A stretch of DNA of 64,000 nucleotides from Cetorhinus maximus. Taxonomy: Eukaryota. Shown piece after piece: positions 12,893 to 41,202 of the stretch. The DNA is taken from assembly GCF_964194155.1 (NCBI RefSeq), contig NC_135907.1:24676001-24740000 (forward strand), in the 5' to 3' direction. The translations under genes and the position numbers were made by a program. How positions within the stretch are numbered: position 1 is the stretch's first letter; every line of letters starts with the position of its first letter. The notes below the pieces were generated by a model. That model searched no databases. It had not been told where the DNA came from and saw only the letters and a list, made by a program, of their open reading frames with translations.

Positions 12893-14605
12893 GCTCCTCA
12901 GGGTCAGGGACAATGAGACAAGTCCCTGGGCAGCAAATACTCTTCATCCAATTCACCCTCAACCAGCCTGTCCTCATCAGCTGCAACATCACATAAAGAT
13001 CTTAGAAATCAGGGGCGTAACCCAACCATAGTTGCATCTTGGTGAAAGGTGTCAGCTTTTGATTCATTTGATGCTTTAAGGTGTATTATGAAAGGGGAAT
13101 AGGAACATTAATATGAAGAGATATCATTTCGTTTTTCGCTGAAGCTTCAGGATGTGTGATTTGCGTTGCTTCACTTAGTTTTTTTTAAGCCACATTATAA
13201 AATCAAATCGTCAAAACATCTGATAGGAATGGGACAGGAGGCAAATAAGCTGGCATCTGTTTCTTGAATGAAATATCTACTTTCTGGGGACAACGCCTGT
13301 CAGTCATAATGGATCAGCAATGATAGCGAGAAATGGTCTCTAAAGATCCTAAGTTTTTCTTGACAAGTTGTAGGAGAGAGTCGGGTTCAAAACAGATCAG
13401 CAGGTTCTTGGCAGGTCTACTTGCCCAAGAATGTCGATTGTGTGAGCTCAGGTTAGGTGTCAATGATCAAATTGTTTAATAAAAACAGAAAATGTTGGAA
13501 AACCTTTATGGTTGATTGCTCATTTCGATTACATAACCTACCTTGTCACATTTTCTACCACCATTTATGAACCTTACCAGCGAGCCCGTACTTTGCTATT
13601 CCTTCCTACATGCTCTGAACTCATTGACATTGTGATCCCACCGCCTCGGCCGTCAGTCCAGTGAATATTCTAGATTCTGGTTTGCTCGCTGGCTCAATGT
13701 GGTCAAGTCAATCCTCAGTTTGAGCGCAATGATTATATCTCTGTTCTTGTCGATAGTGATCGCTGACCATGTCCCTCTGGTGGTCCTGAATCAATTGTAC
13801 CCTCGGGGCTGAAGCTCCCGTCGTTCTACTTTCATGTGAGTGTTGCACATATAAACTGCTATTCATTACCTAATGATCTGAAGATGTCTAAATTAACTCA
13901 GTCCAAATGAGACTAACCATAGACAATCCAACACTCTGAGTAACACGGTAGTATATAGTGAGCGAACTGTAATTATTGAGGATTAATCCTCTTATTTGAC
14001 AATTGCACAGAATAAGATACAATGATACAATAAGTAACAATTTTATTTCACACCATCCACAACAATAATAACATGACACAGCTAAGCATTGAAAATTACA
14101 GTAAGTACTTGAGCTTATATTAATTAGTTAGTTAATTAATTAATTAGTCAACAGTGTCGATCCTCAGGCACAAAACGGAACTCGTTAATTATAACGTCTC
14201 AGTTTTGGACAAGTTATGTTTCATAAAAATATTACAGCTGTTATTGCGTTTCCAATGTTTCTAGTTATTGCCAAGCGAGCAGTTATATTCAAGGTGTTGT
14301 TGACAAGTTAGGAGAGTTGGGTCTTCCTCTGAAATGTAAACACCAAACCTTCCTTTTCGTAGTTTGTCAGCCGTAGCTGGGCTGTTCGCCCTGAAGGACG
14401 GAGTGTCAACATTAACATTAGGACCCATTGTTTCTTAAAATGTCAACCTTCTTACTGTGACCAAACCTTGCAGCGAAGCAACATGTTTCCTAACAATGTT
14501 TTTATGGGTTACTTTACTTCCCTTTGATGGTAAATTATTAAATGCCAGCAATCAAGAATTGTACAAACAGATTTAATGATTTTTTAATTTTTGCTACGTT
14601 CGAAT

Positions 14606-14772
14606 TCAAGGTGATTCAGTTGATTTAGTGAGCTCGGTCATTGGCATGTTGCTCATGGGAATCTTCAGGTGTTCCTTGTTGCCAGGTTTCCAGCACCACA
14701 CGGAGATCACCACTAAGTGAAAGATGAAAACAAAACCCAGACGGATACCCATTGCAATCGGCCAAACCAATC
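14606..14772 (-). CDS. Activating-type Ig receptor: TM plus short cytoplasmic terminal exon (GLVWPIAMGIRLGFVFIFHLVVISVWCWKPGNKEHLKIPMSNMPMTELTKSTESP*)
   Basis: ctttctcatttcctatattag acceptor, phase 1 matches the Ig exon; hydrophobic helix with Arg (IRLG) and His; TGA at 14606-14608; ATTAAA just downstream. Confidence 0.8.
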
Positions 14773-15299
14773 CTAATATAGGAAATGAGAAAGTGATTAC
14801 ATTTCGGCAAAACCCTGAAAATGTTCAAGTTCATGTCCAATTGCCTTTCAAAAGTTCCCATGGAATCTACTCCCACCAAAGTGCATTTCAAATCATCATA
14901 AGTCTCTGGATTCATTTCTCTTCTCTTCCTCTTGTTCTTTTGCTGATGATTTTAAATTGATGACCTTTGGTTAGCTACCAGCTTGTCAAAGGAAACACTT
15001 TCTCTCTGCGCCCCACCTCACAAATCTCGCTCTGTTTTCACAGTTCTGACCATCACCCACCCCCACATACACCTCAAACCCAGCCCACAGCTCCACGCCT
15101 CATTTGCACCGTTCTACGTCCCCCCGCTCACAGCTCTACCCTCCCCTCCCCCCCCCCGCCCCCACGCCTGCTCTCACAGTTCAACCCCCCCGCCCCCAAA
15201 CTCTGCGGTCACGGAAATCTTGAAGCTTCAAAATGGAGTCACAGTGGGATAAATGTTTGGAAAGCACTGCTCTGTTTGCTCCTTCGTTATTGTGAATAC

Positions 15300-16400
15300 C
15301 TCAATTAAATCTCCCTTTAACCTTATCTCCAATCTCTCCAATTAACTGAACTTCTCCATCCCTGGTATCGTTCCAGTGATTCTCCTCTGCACCTTCTGCA
15401 AGGATTTGACATCCTTTCTTAGTGTGGTGCCCAGCATTGTACACAGTACTCCAACTGAAGCCTCACCAATGATTTAAATGTTTAGCATGACTTCCTTGGT
15501 TTTGCATTCAATGGCCCCAACTTACAAAACCAAGTCTCCCACCTTCACTTTATCAACTTGCTCTGTCACCTCAAAGACTTCTGAATATGCACTCCCAGGT
15601 CCCTCTACTCTTGCCCCTCCCCCCAACCTCCACAGAATATTATCATATAATGCCCCTCCATGTTGCTTCTGCCAGAGTAATCTACATTAAACTGTGCCTT
15701 CCACCTGTCTGCCCATTTCACCATCTGTCTCGGCCCTGCCCAAGTCTGTCACTATCCTGTTTACTATTTTCTAAACTTTCTTAAATTTAGTGTCATCCTC
15801 AAACTATGAAATTTTACTCCTTATACCAAAGTCCAGGCCATTTATCTATAAGAAAAGTAATAACAAGGTATTTTTATAGCACATTTAACCTAATAAAACA
15901 GCCCAATGTTCTTCACAGAGGCACTATAACACAAAAATAATCATTGAAACACATCAGGCGATACTAGGTAAGATGACCAAAAGCTTGGTCAAAGGGGTAG
16001 CTTTTATAGATTGTCTTAAAGAAGGAGAGAGCTGGGGAGAGGTTTAGCAAGGGAATTCTGGAGTTTAGGGCTCAGGCAACTGAAAGGCGTGGCCACCAAT
16101 GGTGGAGCGATTAAAATCAGGGATGAGCAAGAGGCCAGAATTAGGAAATTCAGGTATCCCAAAGGGCTGGAGGAGATTACAGAGATGGGAAGGGACGGAG
16201 CACGGAGAGATTTGTTAAAATGAATGAGCATTTTAAAATCGATGTTTAACTGGGAGACAGTGGAGGTGAATCAGGAGAGAGCTGGTGGGGAACAGGCTTT
16301 GGTGCGAGTTAGGACACAGGCAGCAGGATTTTGGGTGACCTCAGGAGGGGGAGGGTTACGGAGGTGGAAATAAGTGATCTTAGTGACAACCTGGATATGT
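15300..16400 (-). mobile_element. Old CR1/L2-type LINE fragments
   Basis: Reverse complement resembles LINE RT 3' region (LVRLQLEYCVQCW-like; FHLRN...QNPAACVLTR; FSCLSPKLQNSL). Confidence 0.6.
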
Positions 16401-16732
16401 GGTTGAAAACTCATCTGGAGTCTTTCGCTGCAGTTTGGAAAACATCCCTTCAGCACTATCCTCTCCCTGCTATCCCTTAGCCAAGTTGGCTCTTTAATAT
16501 CAGGTGAGTTGTTTCCTCCGGTTGGGATTCCGATTGTTTTACACCCGAACTATCTCTAGCCTGAAGGAACGGTCATGACCTGCTCGTCGGCTGGGGTTTT
16601 TGTGGTCAACCTTTAGCTTCCAGTCCTCTGTGCGAGATCCTTCATCAAATTACTGAAATGATCTCGCTTCCCATTCGAAGAGACTTGCCCGCACGGAAGA
16701 ACCAGAATTAGAAACACAAACAGGAACCTCAC

Positions 16733-17014
16733 CTTTCACAGTGAGTTTCACATAATTACTGTAGGCGACCGATGCGAACTGCACAGTGTCGTACACACAG
16801 TAGTAAGTCGCTGCATCTGATGTCTGGGCTTTGAACTCGAAGACACCATGGAAGCTCTTCCCCGATATGTTTATTACTCGCTGCTCGCCTGTTCCTACTT
16901 TATACAGATGTAGCTTGGCGACGGGCCCGGGCCCCGTTACATTGCATGTGAATTTCACACTGTCTCCGCTCGTCACGGAGCCTGACTGGGGGTCGACAGA
17001 CAGCGTCAGGACAC
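16733..17014 (-). CDS. Activating-type Ig receptor: single C2-type Ig exon (VLTLSVDPQSGSVTSGDSVKFTC...LHLYK...DAATYYC...SNYVKLTVK)
   Basis: 282-nt phase 1-1 exon, tgtttgttccag acceptor, gtgagg donor; two Cys, DxxxYxC motif, LYK at the C strand as in LRC/FcR-like domains. Confidence 0.9.
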
Positions 17015-17127
17015 CTGGAACAAACAGATTCGAGAATTAAACGTCCCCCGCTCTAGTTTAGATCCGTTTCTCTTGTGGTCTGCAGGACCGGTTTCAATAA
17101 ATCCATTCTGAAACCCTCTTTATGCTA

Positions 17128-18083
17128 AAAGCAAAAAACTGCGGATGCTGGAAATGCAAAACAAAAACAAAAATACCTGGAAGAACTCAGCAGGTCTGAC
17201 AGCATCTGCAGAGACAGATAACACAGTTAACGTTTCGAGTCCGTATGACTCTTCAACAGAACTAAGGAAAAATAGAAAAGGGGTGAAATATAAACTGGTT
17301 TAAGGGGAGGGTGGGGGGACAGGTAGAGCTGGATAGAGGGCCAGTGATAGGTGGAGATAACCAAAAGATGTCACAGACAAAAGGTCAAAGAGGTGTTGAA
17401 GCTGGTGATATTATCTAAGGAATGTGATAATAAAGGTACAGATAGCCCTAGTGGGGGTGGGGTGGGGGGAAGGGATTGAAATAGGCTAAAAGGCAGAGAT
17501 AAAACAATGGATTGAAATACATTTAAAAATAATGGAAATAGGTGGGAAAAGAAAAATCTATATAAATTATTGGAAAAAAGGGGGATCGGAAAGGGGGTGG
17601 GAATGGAGGAGAGAGTTCATAATCTAAAATTGTTGAACTCAATATTCAGTCCGGAAGGCTGTAAAGTGCCTAGTCGGAAGATGAGGTGCTGTTCCTCCAG
17701 TTTGCGTTGAGCTTCACTGGAACAATGCAACAGGCCAAGGACGGACATGTGGGCATGAGAGCAGAGTGGAGTGTTGAAATGGCAAGCGACAGAGAGGTCT
17801 GGGTCATGCTTGCGGACAGACCGAAGGTGTTCCGCAAAGCGGTCACCCAGTCTGCGTTTGGTCTCTCCAATGTAGAGGAAACCGCATTGGGAGCAGCGAA
17901 TGCAGTAGACTAAATTCAGGGAAGTGCAAGTGAAATGCTGCTTCACTTGAAAGGAGTGTTTGGGCCCTTGGACGGTGAGGAGAGGGGAAGTAAAGGTGCA
18001 GGTGTTGCATCTTCTGCGGTTGCATGGGAAGGTGCCGTGGGAGGGGGTTGAGGTGTAGGGGGTGATGGAGGAGTGGACCACGG
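17128..18083 (-). mobile_element. 5'-truncated Penelope-like element (GIY-YIG endonuclease end plus terminal repeat) with 11-bp TSD
   Basis: VYCIRC...LYIGETKRRL...EH...HFN...LEEQHLI...PSGLN; TCTTTATGCTA at 17117-17127 and 18084-18094. Confidence 0.92.
17226..17262 (-). ncRNA. Minimal hammerhead ribozyme motif of the Penelope element
   Basis: Minus strand CUGUUGA-A-GAGUC-AUACG-GACUC-GAAAC-GUUA: HHR-like core with paired stem II and palindromic stem III. Confidence 0.65.
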
Positions 18084-18821
18084 TCTTTATGCTATCCGAG
18101 CGGACTCTGCCCCATCAGGCCTGATACCCTTCCCAGGCTCTGATGGGAATCTCGGGCATCCCCGGGTGGTGAACCCGCCGGGAGTGTGTCCTGGGTCCCT
18201 GTGTGCTACCCACTCGGAGCAATCGGTTCAGGGAAATCCCTTGCAAACACCGAACAACACATCGGAGACCCGTGATGGGACACAGGGACAGGGAGAGGCC
18301 ATTCAGCCCTTCAGACCAGCTCCTCATTTAATTAGCTCACGGCCGAGCTGTGTCTCAACCCCACTTATAGGCCTTTTCTCCACATCCCTGATCCTTGATC
18401 CTGATCCTTGCCCAATCGAAGTGGCGCTCGCCGGGACACGATTCCTCCTAGTCTATTCTGTTGCTGTAAATCTCTAAGATTTGCACCCTGAATGTGTTCA
18501 CTGCTACTGGGGAGATCTGGCCGGCACTTACTGCCCCATTTCTCCTCGGAATGTGAGGCAAACACCGGAATTTCTCATCCTCCGGAGGAAGTCGGATGTT
18601 GAGAAAATTCTTACTTAGATCACGAAATTCTTTTTTAAAAAAAGCAATCGACCCTCCTCAGCGCGAGCTTCTAAATCCCTTTTGAATAGTTGTTCAATGA
18701 TAATTAAGGACATTTACCCATAATGTGAAATATGAACAAATTCAATGAGAATCGGTGACCGGTTCCATAAACTGATGGCAGGAGCCGCATTTACGGTGCA
18801 GCTTGTTCTCAAGCACCTTAC

Positions 18822-18879
18822 TGTAAAGGACTGTGAGACCAACGAGCGAAGGAACAAGACCCCCATATATATTGGCCAT
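18822..18879 (-). CDS. Activating-type Ig receptor: putative leader exon (MANIYGGLVPSLVGLTVLY)
   Basis: ATG (ctcATGG), hydrophobic stretch, A|gtaagg phase-1 donor compatible with the Ig exon; a second mini leader exon may be missing from the model. Confidence 0.6.
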
Positions 18880-18984
18880 GAGTGGTGCAAGAGAATGGAC
18901 GAGTGAGAAAGAGTGAGAATGACATGTTGCTTCTGGCACTAAACTATTCTGCCCATATCTCCTGGGATCAAATCCCATCAGGAG

Positions 18985-19018
18985 CAGGAAATGACCACGA
19001 AAGGCGTCAGATTGTGGT
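18985..19018. promoter_or_regulatory. ETS and RUNX motifs upstream of the activating-type receptor ATG
   Basis: CAGGAAAT next to GACCAC, plus TGTGGT, ~100-140 nt upstream; short motifs that could occur by chance. Confidence 0.3.
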
Positions 19019-19299
19019 AAATATCCGAACACATCATCCCAGTGTACCAAAATGTACTACCCACCGAGCCTGGGCGACTCCAATCGAATCTCCCCAGGAC
19101 TATCAGCTGCCAATACCCCAAGAACAAATTCGCACATGTACAGAAAATGTTCCACATGGTATCTAACACCATGAGGATAGAATATTCTGATCGTTTCATT
19201 CTGTATCGATATGTCCATGTTTCCGAACATTAGAACGGGGGGGGGGGGGGGGGGGTCAGGCAGAGAGTCCTGGGGCCGGCTTCCTACACTAATAGGGAT

Positions 19300-19555
19300 C
19301 CTCTCCTCCCCTCCGCCGCCCCCACCCCACCTCCCACCCACCCTCCCTCCCCTAACCCCCTCCCCACCTCCCACCCACCCACCCTCCCCTAACCCCCACC
19401 CCACCTCCCACCCACCCTCCCTCTCCTAACCCCCTCCCCACCTCCCACCCACCCTCCCTCCCCTAACCCCCTCCCCACCTCCCACCCACCCACCCTCCCC
19501 TAACCACCTCCCACCCACCCTCCCTCCCCTAAACCCCTCCCCCACCCCCACCCCG
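19300..19555. repeat. C-rich low-complexity tandem repeat
   Basis: Repeated ccccacctcccacccaccctccctcccctaa. Confidence 0.85.
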
Positions 19556-20644
19556 TCTCTGTCCATGATGCTTTTGACATGTCCTAATTTCTAGATGTAA
19601 TATAAATACAACTGTCCCTGTTTTCTCAACCGTATTGAACGTGACATAAAACGTGCAGAGGGTTCGTGTGAATTGCCCGCTATAAATAAACTCAAAACAA
19701 AAAGCGGACTAGATGCTGACTAGTACTGTAAACTGGGTTGTGAAATATCTCTCAGTGACTGAAGTACTTGATGTTGGTGACTCATCCAGTCGAGTTCCCC
19801 CTTTTTGTTTTAGTTTTGGACACGAACCTTCCATTGCGACCTTCACCGAGCCAATCAAATGAGCTGTAAACAGAAAATAATAAATTCAATCATTCAAACC
19901 CAAAGGAATTAAGCCGAGAAAAAGTCAGTATTCAAGTACTTCATCAAATACAGGCTTTGTCCATGAGGTGAGCGCAGATTAAGTTGTGATGCCAAATGCA
20001 GCATTTCTATTTGTGCCCATTTTTCACCAATAACCAGCCCGTTTCTAACAGAATGAGAGTTGTTCTCACAAGAAATCCTCAATTAATTTAAACTGCAACG
20101 TTAACTTCCCGCTTCTCTTCTTCTCAAACAGTGTGATATTATTCCAGAGGGATTTACCAACATAGCGACATTATTCCCTCTCACTGAAAACCTCGATAGA
20201 TTTACTGACTAAACATCCCCCGGCCTTGACCACTAACTGGTAACTTGTTGTGAGGAGAGCATTTGTCAAACATCCCTGCTTGTTTCGAGAATTAAACTTC
20301 CCCCCTAGCAGTCCATGACAGCAAATGGTTTCCAAATAACCATTACCGCTCCATTTACTGCCAGCGAGTTGCATCTATCAATCATTTTCCTGATGTCAGA
20401 AGAAGCTCATTACAGTTTCTCGGGCGCTTTCACGAGTGTTCCTCAGAGCTGGGAGCGTTTCTTCTCCACGGTCTCAGCTCCTGAATGTCCTTCACCAATC
20501 AGCCACGGTCCAACTGAATGGCGGGGTAAGGCTCCAGGGGTCAATTGGCCTCCTCCTCCCGCTCCGACTTCTCGTGTCCCTCTCATGTTAACACCGTTGT
20601 GTCCAACAGGTCGAGGTGATGCGCCTAGTGTAAGGGCGAAGAGG

Positions 20645-20719
20645 ATGAGCACGCTTCTCGCTCTCTATCTGCTGGCTGCTTCTCATTATCTCACTTCCAG
20701 ACATTCCCGCTGGCTACAG
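20645..20719 (+). CDS. Candidate leader exon of the inhibitory-type receptor (MSTLLALYLLAASHYLTSRHSRWLQ)
   Basis: Signal-peptide-like core and a perfect CAG|gtaagt donor, but it ends in phase 0 while the next identified exon needs phase 1. Confidence 0.45.
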
Positions 20720-20735
20720 GTAAGTGAAAGTGTGG

Positions 20736-20948
20736 AACAAAAACAAAGGTACCTGGAAAAACTCAGCAGGTCTGACAGCATCTGCGGAGAGGAATACAGT
20801 TAACATTTCCGGAACTTCTGATGAAGAGTCAGACGGTCTCGAAACGTTAACTCTGTCTCTCTCTCTCCACAGATGCTGTCAGACCTGCTGAGTTTTTCCA
20901 GCATTTTCTGTTTTTATTTCAGATTTCCAGCATCCGCAGTACTTTATT
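20736..20948 (+). mobile_element. Short palindromic Penelope-derived element with a hammerhead core at ~20818-20852
   Basis: Inverted arms ctggaaaaactcagcaggtctgacagcatctg / cagatgctgtcagacctgctgagtttttccag around CTGATGA-AGAGTCAGACGGTCTC-GAAACGTTAAC. Confidence 0.8.
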
Positions 20949-22319
20949 TTTACCATAAAGTTTGCCCAGTGTTGCACGCCGGAGAGGAGACTCCAGTTTC
21001 GCTGGACACAGAGCTAACGTGACATAAATCATCATCTCATCTGCCAGAGAATGTGACAATATTTCAGCGGTAGCTACAGATAGATACAGATGAAGATACA
21101 ACACTCACCAACCACAACAATAACGAAAAACAGCATTTTTACTGGGAATTTTCTTCCATTAAGTTCCGAACTGCTTGGATTCCGCAAGGATAATATCTTT
21201 AGAGAATATGGGGCTGTAATTTGGCAATAACGGAACTGAGCTCATTGGCATTGAAACGTACCACTGACCAGAGGAAGTTCTCTCAATAAGAACGTTTGCC
21301 CTGACGAATTAAGAGAGGGTCATTTCCCGTAAACAATCTTTACTGTTGAAATGTCTTAGAGAATCAGAGCGGTTTACATATCAAAGGGGCCTCAGGCCCT
21401 CTGTCGGAATCATTTCATCGGAGAAAAAGGGTTAGGAGTTAAAAATATAATCCAGTTCTAGTCACAATCCATCCAAAGCCTCCAGTGCACCATCCCCACT
21501 TAGCTGCTGTGTGTCTGAGTCTGGACATTAAGTGTTGGGAAGAAATGGGATTAAGGAGTTGCAGCGTTCTGACCTGTTCTTAGACTGCTCGGTGCTCACT
21601 TCCAGGAATGGATCCGCTTTTGTTTTCGCGAGCTGACAGTTATAAATAAATTCAGAATTTGCACCTTTTGTTTTTGGTGCCAATACTCGTTTCTATTGGG
21701 GAATACAATCCTCTAAGTTTTGGATGGTTGATTCTTAAAAATCTAATGATAGCTTAGTTTTTAATTTGATTTTGTACTTCGATGAATCTGGGAAAAGTGA
21801 TGCTCGAAACACTAACCCCGAGACTGGGGGCTGGGGGTCACAGGCAGACTGGGGGGCAAAATGCTGGCTTCTCCAGTATCTGCGCGCAGTTTCTGAGTTT
21901 TCTAATAAGAAATAAAATCCATGAAGTCATTGTCCACTTTCCGTAATGACTAATAGGAACTTAGCAAAAACAGGACAATGATTGCATCGAATGTTAAAAA
22001 AAAACCACTGGCAGATTCATAGATTCAAAACATTACCAAGACTATATGGGCTTGTGTATCTTTAGTAACTGCACCATATGAACGTCCTTGTTTCCATGTA
22101 CATTAACCCTAATCCTAACGCGATACCTACCCCAACCCTAACTCAAATTTAAACTCTCCGCAAATTTAAAGGAAACCACAAACCAGTGAGGAACAAACGA
22201 GAAATAAGAATAGAAACACAAAAGGGGACAATTGGTTTACCGCCTGCATTCACCGCTCTAACTCGAATCCATACCCACTCAAACTGACCTTGATCTTCCA
22301 TTATTAATATACATACCAT

Positions 22320-24430
22320 CCTGATTTGGAAATGTATCGCCATTCCTTCACTGTCACTGGGTACAAACACAGAATAGATACATTCCAACGAGTAAGAAAA
22401 AGCCCAAGGGACCGACACACCATCCATGGTTAACGAGAAAGGTTAAAGATAGTATCAAACTTGAAGAAAAAGTATATAATTGTGCAAAGACAGATGGAAA
22501 GCCAGAAGATTGGACAGAATATAAAGAACAGGAAAGGATGACTAAATGACTAATAAGGAAGGAAAAATTAGAGTATGAGAGAAAGCTAACCAGAAATATA
22601 AACACAAATAGCAAGAGTTTCTATAAATATTTTAAAAAGAAATGAATTAACAAAGTGAGTTTTGGTCCTATAGAAAGTGAGTTTGGAGAATTGATAATGG
22701 AAAACAGGGAGATGGCAGATGAATTGAACAAGTATTTTGCATCAGTTTTCACTATAGAGGATACAAGTAACATCCCAGAAGTAGCTATAAATCAGGAAAC
22801 GGAAGGTATGGAGGAACTCAGGAAAATTACAATCACGAGAGAAGTGGTACTGAGTAAATTGTTGGAGCTGTTGTCTGACAAGTGCCCGGGTCCTGATGGA
22901 CATCCTAGGGTGTTAAAAGAAGTGGCTAGTGAGATAGTTGATGCATTGGTTTTAATTTTCCAAAACTCCCCAAATTTGGGGAAGGTCCCATTAGATTGGA
23001 AGATAGCAAATGTAACTCCATCATTCAAAAAGGGAGGTAGACAGAAAGCAGGAAATACAGGCCAGTTAGCTTAACATCTCTTAGGCAAAATGTTAGAAGC
23101 TTTTATTAAAGAAACTATAGCTGGGCACGTCGGTAACTTCAAGGTAATCAGGTAGAATCGATGTGGTTTTGTGAAAAGGAACTCATATTTAACCACTTAT
23201 TGGAATTCTTTGAGGAAGTAACACGTGCTGTGGATCAAGGGGAACGGGTGGATGAACTGTACTTATATTTCCAGAAGGCATTTGATAAGGTGCCACATCA
23301 AAGGTTATTGAGGAAAATAAAAGCTCATGGTATAGGGGGTAACATATTGCCATAGAGATTGTCTGGCTAACAGGAAGCAGAGAGTAGGCATAAATGCATC
23401 TTTTTCAGGTTGGCAAAATGTAACGAGTGGTGTGCCACAGGGATCAGTGCTGGGACCTCAACTGTTTACAATTTATATAAATGACTTGGATGAAGGGATG
23501 GATGGGATGGTTGCCAAATTTTCTGATGACACAAAGATAGGCATGAAAGTAAGTTGTGAGATGATATAAGGAGGCTACAAAAAGATATAGATAGGTAAGT
23601 GATGGGCAAAGATCTGGCAAATGGAGAATAATGTGGCAAAAATGTGAAATTGTCCATTTTGGCAGGAAGAATAAAGAGAAGCATATTATCTAAATGGTGA
23701 GAGATTGCAGAGCTCTGAGATGCAGAGGGATCTGGCTGTCTTAGTGCATTAATCACAAAAGGCTAGTCTGCAGGTATAGCAAGTAATTAGGAAAGCTAAT
23801 AGAATGTTACCATTTATTGCAAGGGGAATTGAATACAAAAGTAGGGAGGTTATGCTTCAGTTATACAGAGCACAGTGAGACCACAGCTGGAGTGCTGTGT
23901 ACAGTATTGGTCTCCTTATTTAAGGAAGGTTGTAAATGTGTTGGAAGCAGTTCAGAGAAGGTTTATCAGGCTAATACCTGGAATGGATGGGTTTGGACAG
24001 ACTAGGTTTGTATCCACTGGAGTTTAGAAGAGTAAGAGGTGACTTGATTGAAACATATAATATCCTGAGGGGTCTTGACAGGATGGATGTGGAGACGATG
24101 TTTCCTCTTGTGAGAAAATCTAGAACTAGGGGTCACTGTTTAAAAATAAGGGGTTACCCATTTAAAATGGAGATGAGGTGAAATTTCTTTCTCTCAGAGG
24201 GTCGTGAGTCTTTGGAACTCTCTTCCTGAAAAGGCAGTGGAAGCAGAGTCTGAATATTTTTAAGGCAGAGGTGGATAGATTCTTGGTAAGCAAGGGGGGT
24301 GATTGATTATTGGGGGTAGGCGGGATGCAGATTGGAGGTTACTATCAGATCAGCCATGATCTTATTGAATGGTCGAGCAGGCTCAAGGGGCCAAATGGCC
24401 TACTCCTGCTCCTTGTTTGTATGTTCATAT
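22320..24430 (+). mobile_element. Decayed CR1 LINE ORF2 and 3' UTR
   Basis: LNKYFASVFT, PGPDG, FQKAFDKVPH, RGDLIETY motifs, CR1 tail. Confidence 0.92.
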
Positions 24431-24889
24431 ATTCATAAAATCCTGGAACTCCCAGCCTAACAGCACTATGGGTGTACCTATGTCACATGGACTGCAGCAT
24501 TTCAAGAAAGCAACTCACCACCAGCTTCTCAAGGGCAAGGGCCTAGCCAGCAATGCCCACATCCCATGAGGGAATAGAAAAAATTAAGATCATAGATATA
24601 AAACCATTGTGTTGATACAGCTAGTAAACAATTATAAAACAGTTCTGGGCTGTAAAAAGAATTTCATGTAGAGCAGTTAAACTGCATTTAGAAACAGGAA
24701 ATAGCATAAACTAACCACTGTTACCTCTGTTGGAGATATAATTCTAAATGGGGGGGGCGGGGAATTATGATTTGGCAGCCTAAATTTGACAGCTAGTCTT
24801 CCTAATATTGGCCAAACGCAAAGGTCAGGAATAGCCTATTATCCAAAATTAAAGTCACACAAATGTTCCAAAGAGGAGATATAAAAGCA

Positions 24890-26805
24890 GAATTTAAGAG
24901 CTTATATAATTACGTTGAACAGGAAGAGATTAGCAAAAGTAGCAGGACACTTGGACAGTCATAGTATGATCAGACAGAGTCAACATGGATTGATGAAAGG
25001 GAAATTCAGTTTTTTTTTGAGGAAGTAACGAGCAGGGTCGATAAGGGGGAATGAAAGGATGTCTTGAATTTTGGATTTTGAAAAGGCATTTGACAAGATG
25101 TTACTCAAGATGAGGGTTCATGGGATTGGGGCCAAAAAATTAGCATGATTGGTTGGACAGAAAAAGGGATTACAGGAAGGACGTAATAGCTCTGGAGAGA
25201 GTGCAGAGGAGGTTTACAAGAATGCTGCCAGGGTTAGAAAAGTGTAGCTACGAGGAGAGATTGGATAGGTTGGGGTTATTTTCCTTAGAACAAAGAAGGC
25301 TGAGAGGTGACTTGATTGAGGTGTACAAAATTATGAGGGGATTAGATAGAGTGGACAGGATAAAATTGTTTCCCTTGGTGGAGAATTCTAGAACCAGGGA
25401 ACATAGATTCAAGATAAGTGGCAGAAGGTGTAGGGGGGACATGAGGAAGAACTTTTTTACCTAGAGAGTAGTGGGTGTCTGGAATTCGCTGCCCAAGTTG
25501 GTGGTAGAGGCAGAAACTCTAAACTCTTTTAAAAAGTACCTGGATCTGCACCTTAAGTGCTGTGAGCTGCAGGGCTATGGGCCGGGTGCAGGAAGGTGGG
25601 ATTACAAAGGGCACCTGGGTGTCCTCGGGCTGGCATGGACAAGATGGGCCAAATGGCCTCCTCTGTGCTGTAACTTTTCTATGGTTCTATGGATGCCAGA
25701 CTGAAACTATTGGATTGCCACAAGGATCAGTACTTGGGCCGCACCTATTTACAATCCATATCAGTGAATTAAGTGAGAGGACCAAGTGCTACATGTCTAA
25801 TTTCACTGACAATTCAAAGCTAAATGATAAAGGAAGCTGTGAGGAAGGAACAACGAAATTGCAAAAGTTTTTAGACCAGTTAAATTATTGGAAAAGGAAG
25901 TGACAAATGGAGTGTGATGTGGAGAAGCAAGAAATGATCCACTTTGGTAAGAGAATGGAAAAGTAGATTTTAAAAATCTAGTAAATGTTGGTATGCAAAA
26001 TGATTTGAGTATCCTTGTATATGAGTCAGACAGTTGACATGTAGGTACAGCAAGCAATTAGAAAACCAAATGGAATGTTACCTTTATTACAAAGGATAAT
26101 GGAGTATAAGAGTAACAACATTTTGCTGCAATTATATAAGGCCTTGGTGAAATTACCCCTGGAGTTCTGTTTACAGTTTTGGTTTCCGTATCGAAGGAAT
26201 GATTTACTTGTCTGAGGAACATAGAAACATAGGAAAATGGAAACAGGAGTAGGTCATTCAGCTCTTCGAGCCTGTTCCACCAATCAATGTGATCATGGCT
26301 GATCTTCTAACTCAACACCTTACTCCTGTTCTCTCCCCATACCCCTTGATGCTTTTAGTCTGAGAGGGAATGCCATGGAAGTTCACTAGATTAATTCCTA
26401 GGATGAGAGGACTATCCTATGAGAAAAGAATGAGGGGAAGGGGCCTAAACTCTCTGGTGCTTAGAAGAATCTCATTGATGGCTTGACAGGATAGAGGCTA
26501 TTTCTCTGGCTGGAGAGTCTAAAACTAAGGGTTACAGTCTCAGGGTAAGGGTCAGCCATTTGTACTGAGGTGAGGAGGGACTTCTCCACAGAATGTTGTG
26601 AATCATTGGAATTCTCTCCCCAGAAGATGGTGGGTGCTCAGACAGTGATTATAGTCAAGGCTGAGATTGCTGAAGTTTTGGACACTAAACAAATTAAGGG
26701 GATAGGGCAGGAAGGTGGAGTTGAATTTAGAAGGACAATCATGATCGTTGAATGGGGGAGCTGGCTGAATCGGCCTAATTACCTACTCCTGCTCCTATTT
26801 CTTAT
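24890..26805 (+). mobile_element. Old CR1 LINE with nested younger CR1 3' ends (~25168-25692 plus; ~26217-26360 minus)
   Basis: RT motifs; the nested copy ends in a (TTCTATGG)n tail. Confidence 0.85.
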
Positions 26806-26860
26806 ATACTTACCACCAAAAGCAGACATTTCCTTGATGTTTGTGAAGCATTTCCGTGTT

Positions 26861-29800
26861 GGGAAGGCAATGGCGTAGTGGTATTGTCACTGAACTGAAA
26901 AGCAATCCAGAGAGCCAGGGTAATGCTTGGGGTACCCAGGTTCGAATTTGACCACAGCAGATGGTGAAATTTGAATTCAATAAAAATCTGGAATTAATAG
27001 TCTAATGATGACTATGAAACCATTGTCACAAAAACCCATCTGGTTCACTAATATCCCTTTAGGGAAGGAAGTCTGCCATCTTTACCTGGTCTGGCCTACA
27101 TGTGACTAGATCTACAACAACATGGTTGACTCTTAAATGGCCCAGCAAGCCACCCAGTTGTATGAAACCGCTAAAAAGCCTAGAAGGAATGAAACCAGGT
27201 GGACTACCCGGCATTGACCTAGGCACTGCAAATGACAACAGCAAACTCAGCCCTGTTGACCCTGTAAAGTCATCCTTACTAACATCTGGGGACTAGTAAA
27301 ATTGGGAGAAAGCACTGAGGGTGGCAAGGGCACAGAATATACTCTGGGTGGGGGGACTTCAATGTCCATCAACAAGAGTGGCTCGGTAGCACCACTGTTG
27401 GCTGAGTCAAAAGGACATGGCTGCTAATCTGGGTCTGCAGCAGGTGGTGAGGGAACTAACAAGAGGGAAAAAGATACTTGATCTCATCCTCACCAACCTG
27501 CCTGCCACAGTTGCATCTGTCCATGACAGCATTGATAGGAGTGACCACTGCACAGTCCTTGTGGAGATGAAGTCCCGACTTCACATTAAGGATACCCTCC
27601 ATCGCCTTGTGTACCACCGTGCTAAATGGGATAAATTACAAATAGTTCTAGCAACTCAACACTGGTCAACCATGAGGTGCTGTGGGCCATCAGCAGCAGC
27701 AGAATTGCCCTCAACCACAATCTGTAATCTCATGACCCGGTATATCGCCCACTCTATCATTACCACCAAGCCAGGGGAGCAACCCTGGTTCAATGAAGAG
27801 TGCATGAGGGCATGCCAGGAGCACCACCAGGCATACCAAAAATGAGGCTTCAACCTGGTGAAGCTACAACACAGGACTACTTGCGTGCCAAACAGCATAA
27901 CCAGGAAGTGATAGACAGAGCTAAGCGATCCCACAACCAATGGATCAGATCTAAGCTCTGCAGTCCTGCCACATCCAATCGTGAATGATGGTGGACAATT
28001 AAGCAACTCATTGGAGGAGGAGACTTCACAAATATCCCCATTCTCAATGATGGGGGAGCCCAGCACATCAGTGCAAAGGATAAGGCTGAAGCATTTGCTA
28101 CAATCTTCAGCCAAAAGTGCCGCGTGGATGATCCATTTCAGCCTCCTCCTCCAGAGGTTTCCAGCATCACAGATGCCAGTCTTCAACCAATTCAATTCAC
28201 TCCACGTCATATCAAGAAATGGGCTGAAGACACTGGAAACTGCAAAGGCTATGGGCCCTGACAATATTCTCGCAATGGTACTGAAGACTTGTGCTCCAGA
28301 ACTTGCCATACCCCTAGCCAAGCTGTTCCAGTACAGCTACAACACTGGCATCTACTCAGCAATGTGGAAAATTGCCCAGGTATGTCCTGTACACAAAAAG
28401 CAGGACAAATCCAACCCGGCCAATTACCACCCCATCAGTCTACTCTCGATCATCAGTAAAGTAATGGAAGGGTGAGTAATGAACAGTGCTATGAAGCAGC
28501 ACTTGCTTAGCAATAACCTGCTTACTGACTCCCAGTTTGGGTTCTGCCAGGGTCACTCAGCTCCTGACCTCATTAAAGCCTTGATTCAAACATGGACAAA
28601 AGAGCTGAACTCCCGAGGTGAGGTGAGAGTGACTGCCCTTGACATCAAGGCAGCATTTGACCGAGTGGGGCATCAAGGAGCCCTAGCAAAACTGGAGTCA
28701 ATGGGAATCAGGGGGAAAACTCTCTGCTAGTTGAAGTCATACCTAGCACAAAGGAAGATGGTTGTGGTTGTTGGAGGTCAGTCATCTCAGTTCCAGGACA
28801 TACGAACATACGGATGGGGAGCAGGAGTAGACCATTCAGCCCCTTGAGCCTGCTCCACCTTTTAATAAGATCATGTTTGATCTGACAGTAACCTGAAATT
28901 TGCATCTTGCCGACCCCCGATATCACCCCCTTGCTTACCAAGAATCTATCCACCTCTGCCTTAAAAATATTCAAAGACTCTTGCTTCCACCATCTTTTCA
29001 GGAAAAGAGTTCCAAATACTCACGACCCTCTGAGAGAATAAATTTCACCTCATCTCTGTTTTAAATGGGGGCCCCTTATTTTTAAACAGTGACCCCTAGT
29101 TCTAGATATCACTGCAGGAGTTCCTCAGGGTAGTGTCCTAGGCCCAGCCATCTTCAGCTGCTTCATCAATGACCTTCCTTCCATCATAAGGTCAGAAGTG
29201 GGGATGTTCACTGAGGATTGCACAATATTCAGCACCATTCGCGACTCCTCAGATACTGGAGCAGTCCATATCCAAATGCAGCAAGACCTGGACAATATCC
29301 AGGCTTGGTCAGACAAGTGGCAAGTAACATTTGTGCCACACGAGTGCCAGGCAATGCCCATCTCCAATGAGAGAGAATCCAACCATTGCCCTTTAACATT
29401 CAATGGCATTACCATCACTGAATCTCTCACGATCGACATCCTGGGGGTTATCATTGACCAGGAACTGAACTGGACTAGCCATATAAATACTGTGTCTACA
29501 AGAGCAGGTCAAAGGCTAGGAATCCTGTGACAAGTAAATCACCTGCTGCCTCCCCAAAGCCTGTCCACCATTTACAAGGCACAAGTCAGGAGTGTGATGG
29601 AATTCTCCCCACTTACCTTGATGAGTGCAACTCCCACAACACTCAAGAAGCTTGACAACATCCAGGACAGAGCAGCCCGCTTGATTGGCACCCCTTCCAC
29701 AAACATTCATTCCCTCCACCACCGACACACAGTAGCAGCAATGTGTACCATCTACAAGATGCACTGCAGGAACTCACCAAGGTTCCTTTGACAGCACCTT

Positions 29801-30090
29801 CCAAACCTGTGAGCACTACCACCTAGAAGGACAAGGGCAGCAGACAGATGGCAACCTGCAAGTTCCCCTCCAAGCCACTCACTATCCTGACTTGGAAATA
29901 TATCCTTCATTGTTGCTGGGCCAAAATCCAAGAATTTCCTCCCTAACATCACTACGGGTGTACCTACACCACATGGGCTTCAGCGGTTCAAGAAGGCAGC
30001 TCATCACCACCTTCTCAAGGGCAATTAGGGATGGGCAATAAATGCTGGACCAGCCAGTGAAGCCCACACCCTGTGAATGAGTAAAAAAGA
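26861..30090 (+). mobile_element. HER1-like LINE (EN-RT) with an HE1 SINE-like tRNA head; nested CR1 3' end at ~28798-29105 (minus)
   Basis: A-box tggcgtagtgg and B-box ggttcgaat; GDFN, SDH, NYHPISLLS, DIKAAFDRV, PQGSVLGP motifs; HE1/HER1 tail. Confidence 0.88.
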
Positions 30091-30304
30091 AATGGCCACT
30101 GCTTTGTCTACATAGCCAGAGGTGGTAGCTGTCTATTGGGGCGGACGTAATAGATGTCCAGCACTATTGGAAGAGGATGGAGCTACTCCCACTGTCCTGA
30201 CCCATCATGATGAGTTGCTAAGACACTGGAGCATGTTATCTGCAGGACTGAGCCCACCTTTTGCCACTGTCATTAGGGGAGGAAGGTAAAAAGGGAGCAT
30301 GTTA

Positions 30305-30893
30305 GGAACGTAAGAACATAAGAACTAGGAGCAGGAGTAGGCAATTCAGCCCCTCGAGCCTGCCCCGCCATTCAATACGATCATGGCTGATCTCATCTCA
30401 GCCTCAACTCCAATTTCCCACCCTCTCCCCATAACCTTTCACCCCATTACTAATTAAAAATCTGTCTATCTCCTCCTTAAATTTATTCAGCGTCCCGGCA
30501 TCCACTGCACTCCGAGGTAGTGAATTCCACAGGTTCACGATCCTTTGAGAAAAGTAATTTCTCCTCATCTCTGATTTAAATCTACCACCCCTTAGCCTAA
30601 AACTATGGCCTCTCATTCTAGAATGCCCCACAAGGGGAACCACCCGCTCCATGTCTACTTTGTCTATCCCCTTTAGCATCTTATATACCTCATTTAGATC
30701 CCCTCTCATCCTTCTAAGCTCTAGTGAGTATAGGCCTAAACTGCTCAATCTCTCCTCATAAGACAAGCCCCGCATCTCTGGAATCAATCTAGTGAACTTC
30801 ATCTGAACCGCCTCCAATGCAACTACATCCTTCCTCAAGTAAGGGGACCAAAACTGTGCACAGTACTCCAGGTGTGGTCTCACCAATGCCTTG
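30305..30893 (-). mobile_element. CR1 LINE 3' fragment
   Basis: KALVRPHLEYCAQFWSP...RGDLNEVYK...FSQRIVNLWNSLP; tail at ~30305. Confidence 0.92.
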
Positions 30894-31819
30894 TGTTGAA
30901 AATCATTCGCTGGGGTGTTTGTAATGCAAGCCAATGTTTCCCCATGTACAACTTCTGCATTTGAATTACTTCCTCCTGATGATAGTTCCTGAGCCGAAAT
31001 CTTTCTGTTCAATTTTTCATGATGATTCTGCAATTCCTTCTTTTGGTGGGTGAGTACTCTAGCTCCTACTGTTCTGCATGGGTTCACTTACAGGGAAGCA
31101 ATGATCCAAAGGTTGTGGACAGGTGTCCAGTGCTGGCTGAAAGTGGGGTGCAGCAATGTGACCAAGTGATCCAGTTCTGGGTGAAATCACGAGCCCCTGG
31201 CACTGAACACTGGAGCATCTGCACTGACACATGGGCTGGATTTAACAATGGGGAGTTAGCAACCGAAAGTCTACAGGAATGGGTCAAAAATAAACCACAA
31301 AATGTATGTTTCAAATACATGGAAGGGTGTATGTGCGTTCACTCCTGCAGTTGTTGACAGGAAGGAGAATGGTTCCATTTGTGTCCATTGTCAAGTATTT
31401 AGATGTTTAAATTACTGGAGGAAGTTTCCCCCACCAGGTTCACCGTTTACGCCGCTTTTCCTGGAGTTTCCGCGGCTCTTCCGTCGAAGTTACGACCGAC
31501 AAGTGGGAATTAGCACTTTATTCCAACCATATTATCCACCCACCCCAATGAGATTCGGCCCAACCTCACATCATGAGATCGCGATCGGTCCCCACTGCCT
31601 CCCGGGTGGATGGTCCTGCACTGACATAACACCCGGATTACACCCAGATTGGCATAACAGCAAAGCGGAACTGAAACACAGTAGCCTCTCCATGGTCAGA
31701 GCTCCTGAAACAGCAGAAAGGAGAACAGCTGGGCTCCGCTCTGCACCAGAATCCTCCAGCAAAACTCGGTTACACCGCAGAAACCCCACGCAGTCGCACA
31801 AAGTTCAAATGAGATCCCC

Positions 31820-33492
31820 TGTCAAGAAGATATAATAATTCTCAAAATGTTATTGCTATTTATTAGAAAGTAGAGTAATAATGGGATGTGTCTCTGTGGG
31901 TCTTTGAGGCTTAATTGAATTAGAGGCGGATAATCTGGGTGCTTTGACCTAAGAAGAGAGGTTAGGTTTGAAATGTTAATTTGATAAACATGGGGGACGT
32001 TTAGGAACACAGGTGCCAAGGGAACATTTTGAAATAAAGCAGACTAGATTGTTTTCAAAGGGGTGGGTGGAGGTGGTGTTGCTGGTGAAACGTGTCACCC
32101 AGTCAGGTGAAGTTTAGAAACGGTTTGCTTATTTTTCCCGAAGATTACTGGTAGAATTTAATGCTGCGAGAGCATCTCATCACCCTGACTTTGACATGTC
32201 CTGGAGTTCCAGCACTGCGCCTGGGTGCAACTCCTCCAGGTTGCCCCCAAAACAGTTATGTGGGTCTCAGTGTGCCACATGCTGCGGGTGCAGAACCCAT
32301 CTCTTCACCACCCTCTCAGGGTGACCTCGGCATGGGCAATATCTGCTGGCCAACCTAGTGAAGGACACAGGCCATCAATGATTCAGTGCAGTCTCTACAC
32401 TCAGACTGGGTGGTGGGGGGGAAGCCTACCTGCTGGGTTAAGTGACCAATGCCAACATGGTGCTCACCCTTCCCGAACGCAACAGGTCGTTGAAACGCTT
32501 GCGACACTGGATCCAGGTGCTCCGCACCACATTGCGGGAGCTCACCACCCCCGCCACCTCCTCCCAGGCACGTGTGGTCATGTGGGGAGGGGCCTCCTCC
32601 TCCCATCCTGGGGAACCAGGACCTCCCATGGTGCTGCCACCTCCTCAAGGAGGGCAGCAAGACAATCATCGGAAAAATGAGGGGGGGCACAGTGCCCCCT
32701 TGCCCTACCCTCCTGCCTGACCTGCTCACCAGCAGTGATCTGGGGAGCCCTTCCACTGGCCTTGGAAAGACTGCAGCAATGTTTTAAACCAGGCAGCCGG
32801 GTCACCATTGGACCCGGTGGTCATTGCAGTCCCGCTGCTGCCTGCCCACTCCCGCTGTCCTCAGGAGCCGCGATTCACGTTGGGCGGCGTAAAATGGTGG
32901 CACGGACCTGATCGCGGGCAGCGATCGGGTCTGCGCCCGCCCATGCCCGCTCCCGCTCCAACCCCCCAGCCAGAATATTCAGCCTATAGTGAAACAGTGG
33001 GTATTTGCATTCAAAGAGAAAGATATGTATAAAGAAGAAGCAAGGGCTGTGTGTAAGGCAAAGCATTTTTAAGATCTTACAAGTATGAAAAGCCTTCAGC
33101 ATCAATGCCTCAGGCTGCTGCCTTCAAAGGACTGAAGTTAAGAAAACTCACTTGGAATTCGACTTGTTCAGGGTCATGTTTCTTTGCCTGGGTCTTTTAA
33201 AATCGATGTGTCTTACTGTTGCCTTGACGAAATTGTAACTGGGAGTTACATTGATTACAGGATTTAGAAATTATCATTGTAGCAATTTGTCGATCTATGT
33301 ATGTATTTAAAGTCATTTCCTCTGTTAGTAAATGATTACTCTAGTTTTGTAAAAACCTATAAGATTTGGTGGTCTTATTACCACAGGGCATCTCAAAGTT
33401 TATACAAATTGCAGAACAAGTTGTGGCAGTTGTTTCAAGTTTCCCTTTGGGATTTGAACAACTCAGCATTTACCATCGGCTGTGCCATAACA
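31820..33492 (+). mobile_element. Solo LTR related to the Gmr1-type LTR at 48354-55927, interrupted by a Harbinger fragment
   Basis: TGTCA...TAACA ends with CCCC TSD (31816-31819 and 33493-33496); 3' end gttgtttcaagtttccctttgggattt...ccataaca resembles the reverse complement of the Gypsy LTR. Confidence 0.75.
32175..32983 (-). mobile_element. PIF/Harbinger fragment encoding a decayed Myb/SANT-like protein
   Basis: PHFSDDCLAALLEEV... and WEEVAGVVSSRNVVRSTWIQCRKRFNDL; TIR-like end aatattcagcc. Confidence 0.75.
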
Positions 33493-33657
33493 CCCCTGGA
33501 GATCTAAATGTTCAGCAGGGATTGGGTTTCTAACCATTTTAATGAACAAGCACAATAAACTTTCCAGAGTAATCCTCTGATAAAGAGCTGATCTATTTGG
33601 TTGGATTTTTATAGCGATAATTAATTGTATTAATCATGCACTTTTTCTCTGTTACAG

Positions 33658-33687
33658 TTCAAGTTATTGGAAATTGGTCTGTAGCAG
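33658..33687 (+). CDS. Inhibitory-type receptor: 30-nt second leader mini-exon (xQVIGNWSVA)
   Basis: Strong ctttttctctgttacag acceptor, CAG|gttagt donor, open in phase 1-1; split leaders are typical of LRC/FcR genes. Confidence 0.65.
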
Positions 33688-33989
33688 GTTAGTGTTATTA
33701 ATCAGATTGTTAATTAATCCAATTGAAAGTAGTTTGAGTATGGAAAGAGCGAAGTCCAAACTGACCAACAGGAATATTCTGTCCCCCTGGCCTCCTAGAA
33801 GGTGTACACGTTAGTAGGGGACATTGGGAGGCCTTGTGGTGCAGAGGTAGCATCCTTACCTCTGGGTCAGAGCTCCAGGTTCAGTCAGGACTTGGTAGCC
33901 AGAGAAGGCGCGCTCATAATGTGTCAAACAGGTTGATCACCAGCCTGGGAATGCTTATCTGTGCTTCAGCAGTATAAAGAAGAGAGGTT

Positions 33990-36733: not shown

Positions 36734-36756
36734 TGGTGGCTCAAAGAAAGCAGTGC

Positions 36757-39450: not shown

Positions 39451-39579
39451 GTGAGATATTGGACACAGAGTGGAAATCAGTGATATGACACTGACCTTCT
39501 GTCCATAAATCTCACTAACTTGCACCTAATTCTGAAGCAATTGGTGATGATTATTTTACTGTTATTACATCATTATCAT

Positions 39580-41200: not shown

Positions 41201-41202
41201 CA

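What the first reader, a model, noticed from the sequence alone, without database searches (positions are those of the whole stretch)
14606..18879. Activating-type receptor with an FcR-gamma-docking-like 'IRLG' TM motif
The predicted ~168-aa protein has the TM AMGIRLGFVFIFHLVVISVWCW. An Arg near the outer end of the TM in an I/L-R-x-G context is how LILRA, GPVI, FCAR, OSCAR and NKp46 pair with FcR-gamma/CD3-zeta. There is also a mid-TM His. Having only one Ig domain and almost no stalk is unusual for this class. The TM exon is in a frame the ORF track does not show.
Basis: partly seen in the sequence, partly recalled or inferred. Interest (0 to 1): 0.7.

Follow-up and report, generated by a model that had tools for sequence, protein, structure and literature searches.

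The report
Shark activating-type immune receptor, unusual anchor
This is a real, expressed shark gene for a small immune-type receptor whose membrane anchor carries an arginine and a strictly kept histidine, a design shared across sharks, rays and chimaeras and unlike the usual docking motif of mammalian activating receptors.

Summary
It has four exons on the minus strand (21136-21109, 19863-19828 or -19768, 17014-16733, 14772-14606) and matches RefSeq XP_078388039.1 (Cetorhinus maximus, 170 aa). One contig carries the upstream splices; Ig-to-TM splicing fits contig lengths in two studies. The Ig domain is LILR/LAIR/CHIR-type, and the tail has no tyrosine.

The TM exon type is kept in sharks, rays and chimaera. 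His134 is invariant (8 of 8); Arg126 is not (6 of 8: Lys in chimaera, Gln in a stingray). None has the NxxR motif that defines LILRA/GPVI/FCAR/OSCAR/NKp46 TMs. In chimaera, a near-identical ectodomain (201/206) also occurs with a neutral TM and ITIM/ITSM tail, so this is a paired-receptor family. The single Ig is derived: three sharks kept domain 1 of a two-domain form, rays kept domain 2. The gene sits beside WBP11 here and in a catshark.

Best reading: the activating arm of a cartilaginous-fish LRC-like paired family, docking an ITAM adaptor (CD3-zeta/FcR-gamma type, about 45%) through an Arg-plus-His helix face. Adaptor, ligand and LRC orthology are untested.

The parts
21109..21136 (-). 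Leader exon 1, coding part (28 nt, ATG at 21136); transcribed from at least 21239
   Evidence: maps to RefSeq P0001 residues 1-9; GT donor; X5 contig 19 covers 21109-21239
19828..19863 (-). Leader exon 2, 36-nt mini-exon of the RefSeq model
   Evidence: AG/GT boundaries; this short form was not among the listed contigs
19768..19863 (-). Longer in-frame form of exon 2 (96 nt, later GT donor), adding 20 hydrophilic residues before the Ig domain (190-aa product)
   Evidence: X5 contig 19 piece 19766-19863, with a 2-nt GT ambiguity at the joint; frame open
16733..17014 (-). Single C2-type Ig exon of LILR/LAIR/CHIR type (Cys45-Cys94; N-glycan sequons at 46 and 70); corresponds to domain 1 of the two-domain family form
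14606..14772 (-). TM and tail exon: predicted helix 119-143 with Arg126 (14743-14741) and His134 (14719-14717); 27-residue tail without tyrosine; stop 14608-14606
14028..14605 (-). 3' UTR; AATAAA at 14047; X5 contig 17 ends at 14028, X1 contig 1 at 14056
18822..18879 (-).
   Evidence: contig 19 joins across it

Best explanation
A type I surface receptor, the activating arm of a cartilaginous-fish family of paired LRC-like Ig receptors. SHOWN: spliced transcript, LRC-type Ig domain set directly on a conserved TM exon, tail with no tyrosine, and an inhibitory twin in chimaera. INFERRED: having no signalling motif, it assembles in the membrane with a dimeric ITAM adaptor of the CD3-zeta/FcR-gamma type. 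Arg126 in the outer third of the helix pairs with the adaptor's aspartates. His134, two turns deeper on the other edge of the same conserved helix face, gives a second polar contact that fixes the register and may let Lys or Gln be tolerated at 126. Ligand binding by the Ig domain would then trigger ITAM phosphorylation and Syk/ZAP70 signalling in leukocytes. Ligand and cell type are unknown.
For: (1) Arg126 lies 18 residues before the first charged C-side residue, as does the Arg of a catfish NxxR TM (P0071; counted by hand). Fc-gamma partners carry an Arg in the N-terminal TM segment, DAP12 partners a central Lys (PMC1440944). (2) A basic residue stands at 126 in 7 of 8 members, across chimaera, sawshark, three galeomorph sharks and rays. 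(3) TM identity to P0001 exceeds Ig identity in 7 of 7 relatives, e.g. 73% vs 40% for sawshark. Conserved TM columns cluster on one face centred 41 degrees from Arg126, with His134 at 80 degrees (shuffle p 0.03). (4) No YxxL/I/V/M in 7 of 8 tails. (5) Callorhinchus P0007 (Lys/His TM) and P0126 (neutral TM) share 201/206 ectodomain residues; P0168, in P0126's cluster, has ITIM- and ITSM-type motifs. (6) Foldseek ranks 1-10 are LAIR1, LILRA5 and LILRB4, with GPVI, OSCAR and NKp46 further down. CHIR-AB1 scores 43.6 bits as a single-domain chain; the best FCRL5 domain scores 18.6. (7) NKp30 shows that one Ig plus a TM Arg can couple to CD3-zeta/FcR-gamma, and CD247 is expressed in shark.
Against: No NxxR in 8 of 8. 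Arg is Lys in chimaera and Gln in Hemitrygon, and in human FcalphaRI even R-to-K sharply cuts Fc-gamma assembly. The Hemitrygon copy also has Arg at an otherwise hydrophobic Ig-core position, so it may be decaying; that is inference. A 10-residue mostly hydrophobic run precedes Arg126, so it may sit at TM position 6-8 rather than 3. A 2014 survey found no FcR-gamma in shark genomes. One unnamed ray-like member has a YxxV at its tail end. The close inhibitory twin was found only in chimaera; the neutral-TM neighbour in this window is distant (17/54 identical). No binding was measured or modelled with any adaptor.
Confidence: 0.45

Rival explanations
1. His-centred activating receptor. His134 is the main docking residue for an adaptor or co-receptor with a mid-membrane acidic residue (shark DAP12/DAP10 or an unknown partner), and Arg126 only reaches to the lipid head groups.
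For: His134 is invariant in 8 of 8 while Arg126 is 6 of 8. If the TM starts at Gly124, His134 is at position 11, within the 7-12 range of DAP12 partners. Some chicken CHIRAB TMs carry His.
Against: KIR K-to-H completely abolished DAP12 assembly (PMC1440944). All type I human DAP12 partners use Lys. A basic residue is still kept at 126 in 7 of 8.
Confidence: 0.22
2. Two-site receptor that engages two partners at once, as TCR alpha does with its two basic TM residues (recalled): a zeta-type dimer at Arg126 and a second dimer or co-receptor at His134.
For: Two ionisable residues 8 apart and 80 degrees apart, flanking a conserved face. The TM exon was kept while either Ig domain could be lost.
Against: 80 degrees leaves little room for two separate dimers. 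His is a poor substitute for Lys. No second partner is known.
Confidence: 0.1
3. Adaptor-independent, non-signalling molecule. The polar TM residues drive self-association, trafficking or pairing with an inhibitory family member, so it acts as a decoy, ligand or modulator.
For: NxxR is absent and the Arg is not invariant. In galeomorph sharks the gene looks like one conserved locus beside WBP11 rather than an expanding cluster.
Against: A charged TM with a short tail, opposite a neutral TM with ITIM tail on a 97.6% identical ectodomain, is the standard paired-receptor pattern.
Confidence: 0.2
4. Artefact or pseudogene: a chance TM-like frame after a stray Ig exon.
Against: Spliced contigs from two studies, an intact RefSeq model, and 14 full TM-profile matches among 174 fetched proteins at 49.9 bits or more, against 1.5 for the best unrelated one.
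Confidence: 0.03

Closest known systems
Activating LRC receptors with NxxR TM (LILRA, GPVI, FCAR, OSCAR, NKp46, TARM1; Xenopus ILR/XFL TM1; ggFcR)
   Same: C2 Ig of the same fold class; two-exon leader; outer-TM Arg; short tail; paired with inhibitory forms
   Different: No Asn at Arg-3 and no DYT-like lead-in (features); invariant mid-TM His; no stalk; neighbour is WBP11, not the LRC flanking genes named
Chicken CHIR-A / CHIR-AB1
   Same: One or two C2 Ig domains; TM Arg, sometimes Lys or His in CHIRAB; 43.6-bit profile hit to the single-domain CHIR-AB1 chain
   Different: Arg and His together in one TM; no ITIM; no evidence of Ig-Fc binding; orthology not shown
NKp30 (NCR3)
   Same: Single Ig, TM Arg, couples to CD3-zeta/FcR-gamma
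   Different: NKp30 is IgV and CD28-like; this domain is C2/LRC-type (Pfam V-set below cut-off)
LAIR1 and HIDE1 (C19orf38), single-Ig LRC-like receptors
   Same: Top Foldseek hit LAIR1; top Atlas clusters HIDE1, 0.96; chimaera and sawshark relatives hit PF17737
   Different: P0001 does not hit PF17737; LAIR1 and HIDE1 have uncharged TMs and tyrosine-bearing tails (recalled)
RefSeq-annotated chondrichthyan relatives (IGSF1-like, FCRL-like, 'protogenin B-like', uncharacterised)
   Same: Same family and TM exon
   Different: Automatic names only; my searches found no paper describing them as a family

Membership tests
LRC-type activating receptors (LILRA/GPVI/FCAR/OSCAR/NKp46) | C2 Ig domain most like LILR/KIR/LAIR/CHIR | tested here: met
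   Foldseek ranks 1-10 are LAIR1, LILRA5, LILRB4; CHIR-AB1 43.6 bits, PIR-B domain 32, FCRL5 best domain 18.6. Identity is only 20-27% and antibody, nanobody and TCR V domains follow closely.
LRC-type activating receptors (LILRA/GPVI/FCAR/OSCAR/NKp46) | NxxR motif at the TM N-terminus (PMC2413239, PMC6557307) | tested here: not met
   Arg-3 is Met, Val or Ile in 8 of 8; the same scan did find NxxR in a catfish protein, P0071
LRC-type activating receptors (LILRA/GPVI/FCAR/OSCAR/NKp46) | [quoted passage not shown] | tested here: met
   Arg126 in the AlphaFold helix 119-143, 18 before Lys144; 6 of 8 family members have Arg
LRC-type activating receptors (LILRA/GPVI/FCAR/OSCAR/NKp46) | Leader split over two exons, second of 36 nt (the 36-nt rule is recalled) | tested here: inconclusive
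   RefSeq model 28+36 nt; the one spliced contig has 28+96; no paper passage for the rule found
LRC-type activating receptors (LILRA/GPVI/FCAR/OSCAR/NKp46) | Common descent: one clade with mammalian LRC domains | tested here: inconclusive
   Tree of 58 domains: deep forks open, bootstrap not settled; TARM1 was the only named mammalian LRC member included
LRC-type activating receptors (LILRA/GPVI/FCAR/OSCAR/NKp46) | Synteny with LRC flanking genes (TTYH1, LENG8, RPS9, CNOT3 and others) | tested here: inconclusive
   Only 64 kb visible and no genome held; the neighbours seen are WBP11 and a second Ig receptor
LRC-type activating receptors (LILRA/GPVI/FCAR/OSCAR/NKp46) | Association with FcR-gamma or CD3-zeta | not testable with these tools
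Paired Ig-like receptor family | Activating and inhibitory forms with near-identical ectodomains | tested here: met
   Callorhinchus P0007 vs P0126, 201/206 identical, longest contig of the same length; ITIM/ITSM-type motifs in P0168. Met in chimaera; no close twin found for the shark gene itself.
Classical activating FcR / FCRL | TM motif (M/L)Fxx(D/N)TxL and 30/21-nt leader exons | tested here: not met
   No Asp or Asn in the TM; leader exons are 28 and 36 or 96 nt
DAP12-coupled type I receptors (KIR2DS, TREM, CD300, SIRP-beta) | Central TM lysine | tested here: not met
   The central residue is His in 8 of 8; K-to-H abolishes human KIR-DAP12 assembly
NKp30 / CD28-like | Single IgV domain | tested here: not met
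   V-set 14.5 bits against cut-off 26; Ig_2 32.1 against 27
HIDE1 (C19orf38) | Pfam Ig_C19orf38 (PF17737) | tested here: not met
   No hit for P0001 at E 0.05; hits in P0002, P0007, P0126, P0053, P0134

The most novel reading that the evidence does not exclude
Cartilaginous fish have their own paired LRC-like receptor family whose activating arm uses a distinct adaptor-docking TM class (basic residue, 7 residues, invariant His, 6 residues, Trp). It would be older than or parallel to the NxxR (FcR-gamma) and central-Lys (DAP12) classes, with His as a required contact, and could show how Ig receptors first coupled to ITAM adaptors in jawed vertebrates.
Probability: 0.3. Interest if true: 0.75.

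Novelty: new variant of a known kind. Interest (0 to 1): 0.5.

Why it matters
A 2014 survey concluded that C2-only LRC-like receptors and FcR-gamma first appear in bony fish (PMC4016189). This family places LRC-fold paired receptors, with a charged-TM arm and an ITIM arm, in chimaeras, sharks and rays, so before the split from bony fish. It gives a concrete shark receptor on which to test which ITAM adaptor the oldest living jawed vertebrates use. Chimaera Lys and stingray Gln are natural variants of the Arg, and the invariant His does not fit the Arg/Fc-gamma versus Lys/DAP12 rule worked out in mammals. The general kind, a paired Ig receptor with a charged TM, is well known, which limits the surprise.

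Tried and rejected
Whole genome: none held, so paralogs, adaptor genes and wider synteny could not be checked.

Its zero depth in X1 and X5 is not counted as evidence.

Run search listed no holder on record as RNA. X1 is a guess and X5 is unlabelled; I treat X5 as RNA because its contig is spliced.

Remnant of a second Ig exon in introns or flanks: none (best -1.8 bits; positive control 54.8). Other copies of the TM exon in the window: none. Alternative TM acceptor at 14712: no contig support seen.

Single-sequence PDB search gave only weak generic Ig hits. PDB search with the TM gave one chance hit, E 1.7. Atlas search with the TM gave one lead at 0.79. Profile comparison with catfish P0071 aligned only the Ig part.

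Homodimer model of residues 23-147: verdict 'no answer', score 0.01, no evidence either way.

Chiloscyllium P0003 was in the first alignment but left out of the 8-sequence alignment, because its model has no TM. P0007, P0010, P0122 and P0164-P0166 were left out as near-duplicates or isoforms. A leader mini-exon for the neighbouring + strand gene was not found.

Earlier scan notes: nothing. Paper searches listed no paper describing this family; the library lacks most subscription journals. Term look-ups in the elephant shark genome paper and its one held supplement gave 0 hits.
Full report
1. The gene. A search with the Ig found 1 protein among 2 candidates, 100% identical: XP_078388039.1, LOC144669462, Cetorhinus maximus, 170 aa. 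Its leader maps not to 18879 but to exons at 21136-21109 and 19863-19828. These four exons have AG/GT ends and translate to the RefSeq protein exactly.

2. Expression. The run search listed 5 holders from 2 studies, none on record as RNA; 3 were laid. X5 contig 19 (537 nt) lies in adjacent pieces on 16732-17012, 19766-19863 and 21109-21239, plus 27 unplaced letters. With a 96-nt exon 2 and 28 letters of TM exon the lengths sum to 537. X5 contig 17 covers the TM exon and 3' UTR to 14028, just past AATAAA at 14047; contig 18 runs on from the TM exon into the intron. In X1, the other study, contig 2 has 32 letters beyond the Ig exon, which accounts for the depth seen in the TM-exon bin. The only exon 2 form among listed contigs is the 96-nt one; the 36-nt form rests on RefSeq.

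3. The family. A search of 1.84 billion representatives gave 121 hits. Two profile searches gave 18 and 25 hits, each from 8000 scored candidates. A TM profile run on all 174 fetched proteins gave 14 full matches at 49.9-67 bits, one truncated match (P0147, 9.9), and 1.5 bits for the next best. The named matches are Cetorhinus, Scyliorhinus, Mustelus, Pristiophorus, Mobula, Hemitrygon and Callorhinchus; two are unnamed and group with rays. No bony-vertebrate protein among those fetched has this TM, but these searches were driven mainly by the Ig domain. In the 8-sequence alignment the invariant TM columns are Ala122, Leu127, His134, Val136 and Trp141. Position 126 is Arg in 6, Lys in 1 and Gln in 1; Arg-3 is never Asn. 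TM identity exceeds Ig identity in 7 of 7 comparisons. Conservation is one-sided on the helix, centred between Arg126 and His134 (p 0.03 in 10,000 shuffles; the eight sequences are related, so this is modest). Seven of 8 tails lack YxxL/I/V/M.

4. Why one Ig and no stalk. Sawshark and chimaera members have two Ig domains directly on the same TM type. In the tree the Cetorhinus, Scyliorhinus, Mustelus and Chiloscyllium domains group with sawshark domain 1 (100/95), and the ray-type single domains group with sawshark domain 2 (97/95) (bootstrap not settled). Pairwise identity agrees: Cetorhinus 53% to D1 and 42% to D2; Mobula 32% and 52%. No D2 remnant lies in the introns or flanks. The simplest reading is two separate losses from a two-domain form, with the TM exon kept; the tree has no tested root, so the direction is inferred.

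5. Pairing and neighbours. In Callorhinchus, P0007 (Lys/His TM, short tail) and P0126 (neutral TM) are 201/206 identical outside the cell, and P0168 of the P0126 cluster carries ITIM- and ITSM-type motifs. In this window a second single-Ig receptor lies head-to-head on the + strand, with a neutral TM and a tyrosine-rich tail, but its Ig is distant (17/54) and its motifs are not canonical. WBP11 follows about 1.3 kb after the 3' end (first coding exon 12773-12676). A Scyliorhinus gene model fuses the ortholog to a PF09429 protein (the name Wbp11 is recalled), which implies the same order and strand.

6. Fold. The AlphaFold model (pLDDT 75) has a leader helix, one Ig sandwich and a TM helix at 119-143. 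Foldseek ranks LAIR1, LILRA5 and LILRB4 first, with GPVI, OSCAR and NKp46 lower, at 20-27% identity; V domains follow closely. The family profile scores CHIR-AB1 at 43.6 bits and a PIR-B domain at 32, while FCRL5 leads overall only by summing nine weak domains (best 18.6). The Atlas lists HIDE1, KIR, allergin-1, TARM1, FCRLA and IGSF1 clusters at 0.94-0.96.

7. Mechanism. A short tyrosine-free tail, a charged TM and an ITIM twin point to an adaptor-coupled activating receptor (about 75% over all adaptor readings). For a zeta-family adaptor: the Arg lies in the outer TM, in the register of a catfish NxxR Arg, and Fc-gamma partners use an N-terminal Arg. Against a plain LILRA-like fit: NxxR is absent, Lys and Gln occur at 126 although R-to-K impairs FcalphaRI assembly, and FcR-gamma was not found in sharks in 2014, though CD247 is expressed there. 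His134 lies at DAP12 depth, but K-to-H abolishes KIR-DAP12 assembly. I therefore favour Arg docking to CD3-zeta or FcR-gamma with His as a second contact (0.45), over His-centred docking (0.22), a non-signalling role (0.20), two-site docking (0.10) and artefact (0.03). All of this section is inference; no adaptor was tested.

8. Membership and novelty. It works like an activating LRC receptor but fails the NxxR test, and orthology to the LRC is unresolved, so I do not file it as a LILRA/GPVI-class member. It is a new variant: a chondrichthyan LRC-like paired family with its own TM class. RefSeq already predicts the genes under generic names. Ten library searches listed no description of the family, but most subscription immunology journals are not held, so prior description cannot be excluded.

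9. Papers seen. Matching passages only: PMC2413239, PMC4536121, PMC6557307, PMC4016189, PMC11372145, PMC10751288, PMC1440944, PMC10764270, PMC6514059, PMC4701786 (nothing on sharks). Term look-ups with no hits: PMC3964593 text and one supplement (53, 66), PMC5290243. Figures with TM alignments, and supplements other than that one, were not seen and may bear on the motif comparison. Recalled, from no call: the 36-nt LRC leader exon, the two basic residues of TCR alpha, LAIR1/HIDE1 TM and tail features, and the name of PF09429.

Noticed in passing
window 31019-46600 (+): Second single-Ig receptor gene, head-to-head with the finding. Candidate leader exon 31019/31022-31049, Ig 39169-39450, neutral TM 43041-43148, small tail exons 43909-43939, 44848-44888, 45560-45597 (or 45855-45891), last exon 46469-46600. 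The tail has several tyrosine motifs, ITIM/ITSM-like but not canonical; its Ig is a long branch in the tree. No reads were laid on it.
   Followed up: partly
window 12773-50 (-): WBP11-like gene just downstream: coding exons at 12773-12676 (ATG about 12739), 10259-10228, from 8757 to a donor at 8664, within 8176-7880, and 187-50, running off the window. Same neighbour in Scyliorhinus model P0147.
   Followed up: partly
window 13000-22500: Most of the receptor gene lies in a CpG-undepleted stretch (o/e mostly 0.4-0.9 per 500 nt, two low bins), against 0.0-0.33 from 22500 to 31000. It may be a low-methylation domain.
   Followed up: no
window 19768-19863 (-): Alternative 5' donor lengthens leader exon 2 from 36 to 96 nt in frame, adding a 20-residue N-terminal extension with one Cys; this is the form in the spliced contig.
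   Followed up: partly
window 17617-18114 (-): High-copy repeat in intron 2 with an ORF that looks like a GIY-YIG/Penelope-type endonuclease fragment (label recalled); very high DNA contig depth.
   Followed up: no
window 51000-54610 (-): Decayed gypsy-like LTR retroelement ORFs (gag-, RT- and integrase-like pieces, labels recalled); many CR1/L2-type LINE fragments and simple tandem repeats elsewhere.
   Followed up: no
P0143, P0154 (Pelodiscus): Turtle multi-Ig receptors with another unusual TM: outer Arg-Glu and a mid-TM Asn, in a different register from this family.
   Followed up: no
P0128 (Hemitrygon): Stingray copy has Gln for the TM Arg and also Arg at a hydrophobic Ig-core position; it may be a decaying gene or a natural test of the Arg.
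   Followed up: no
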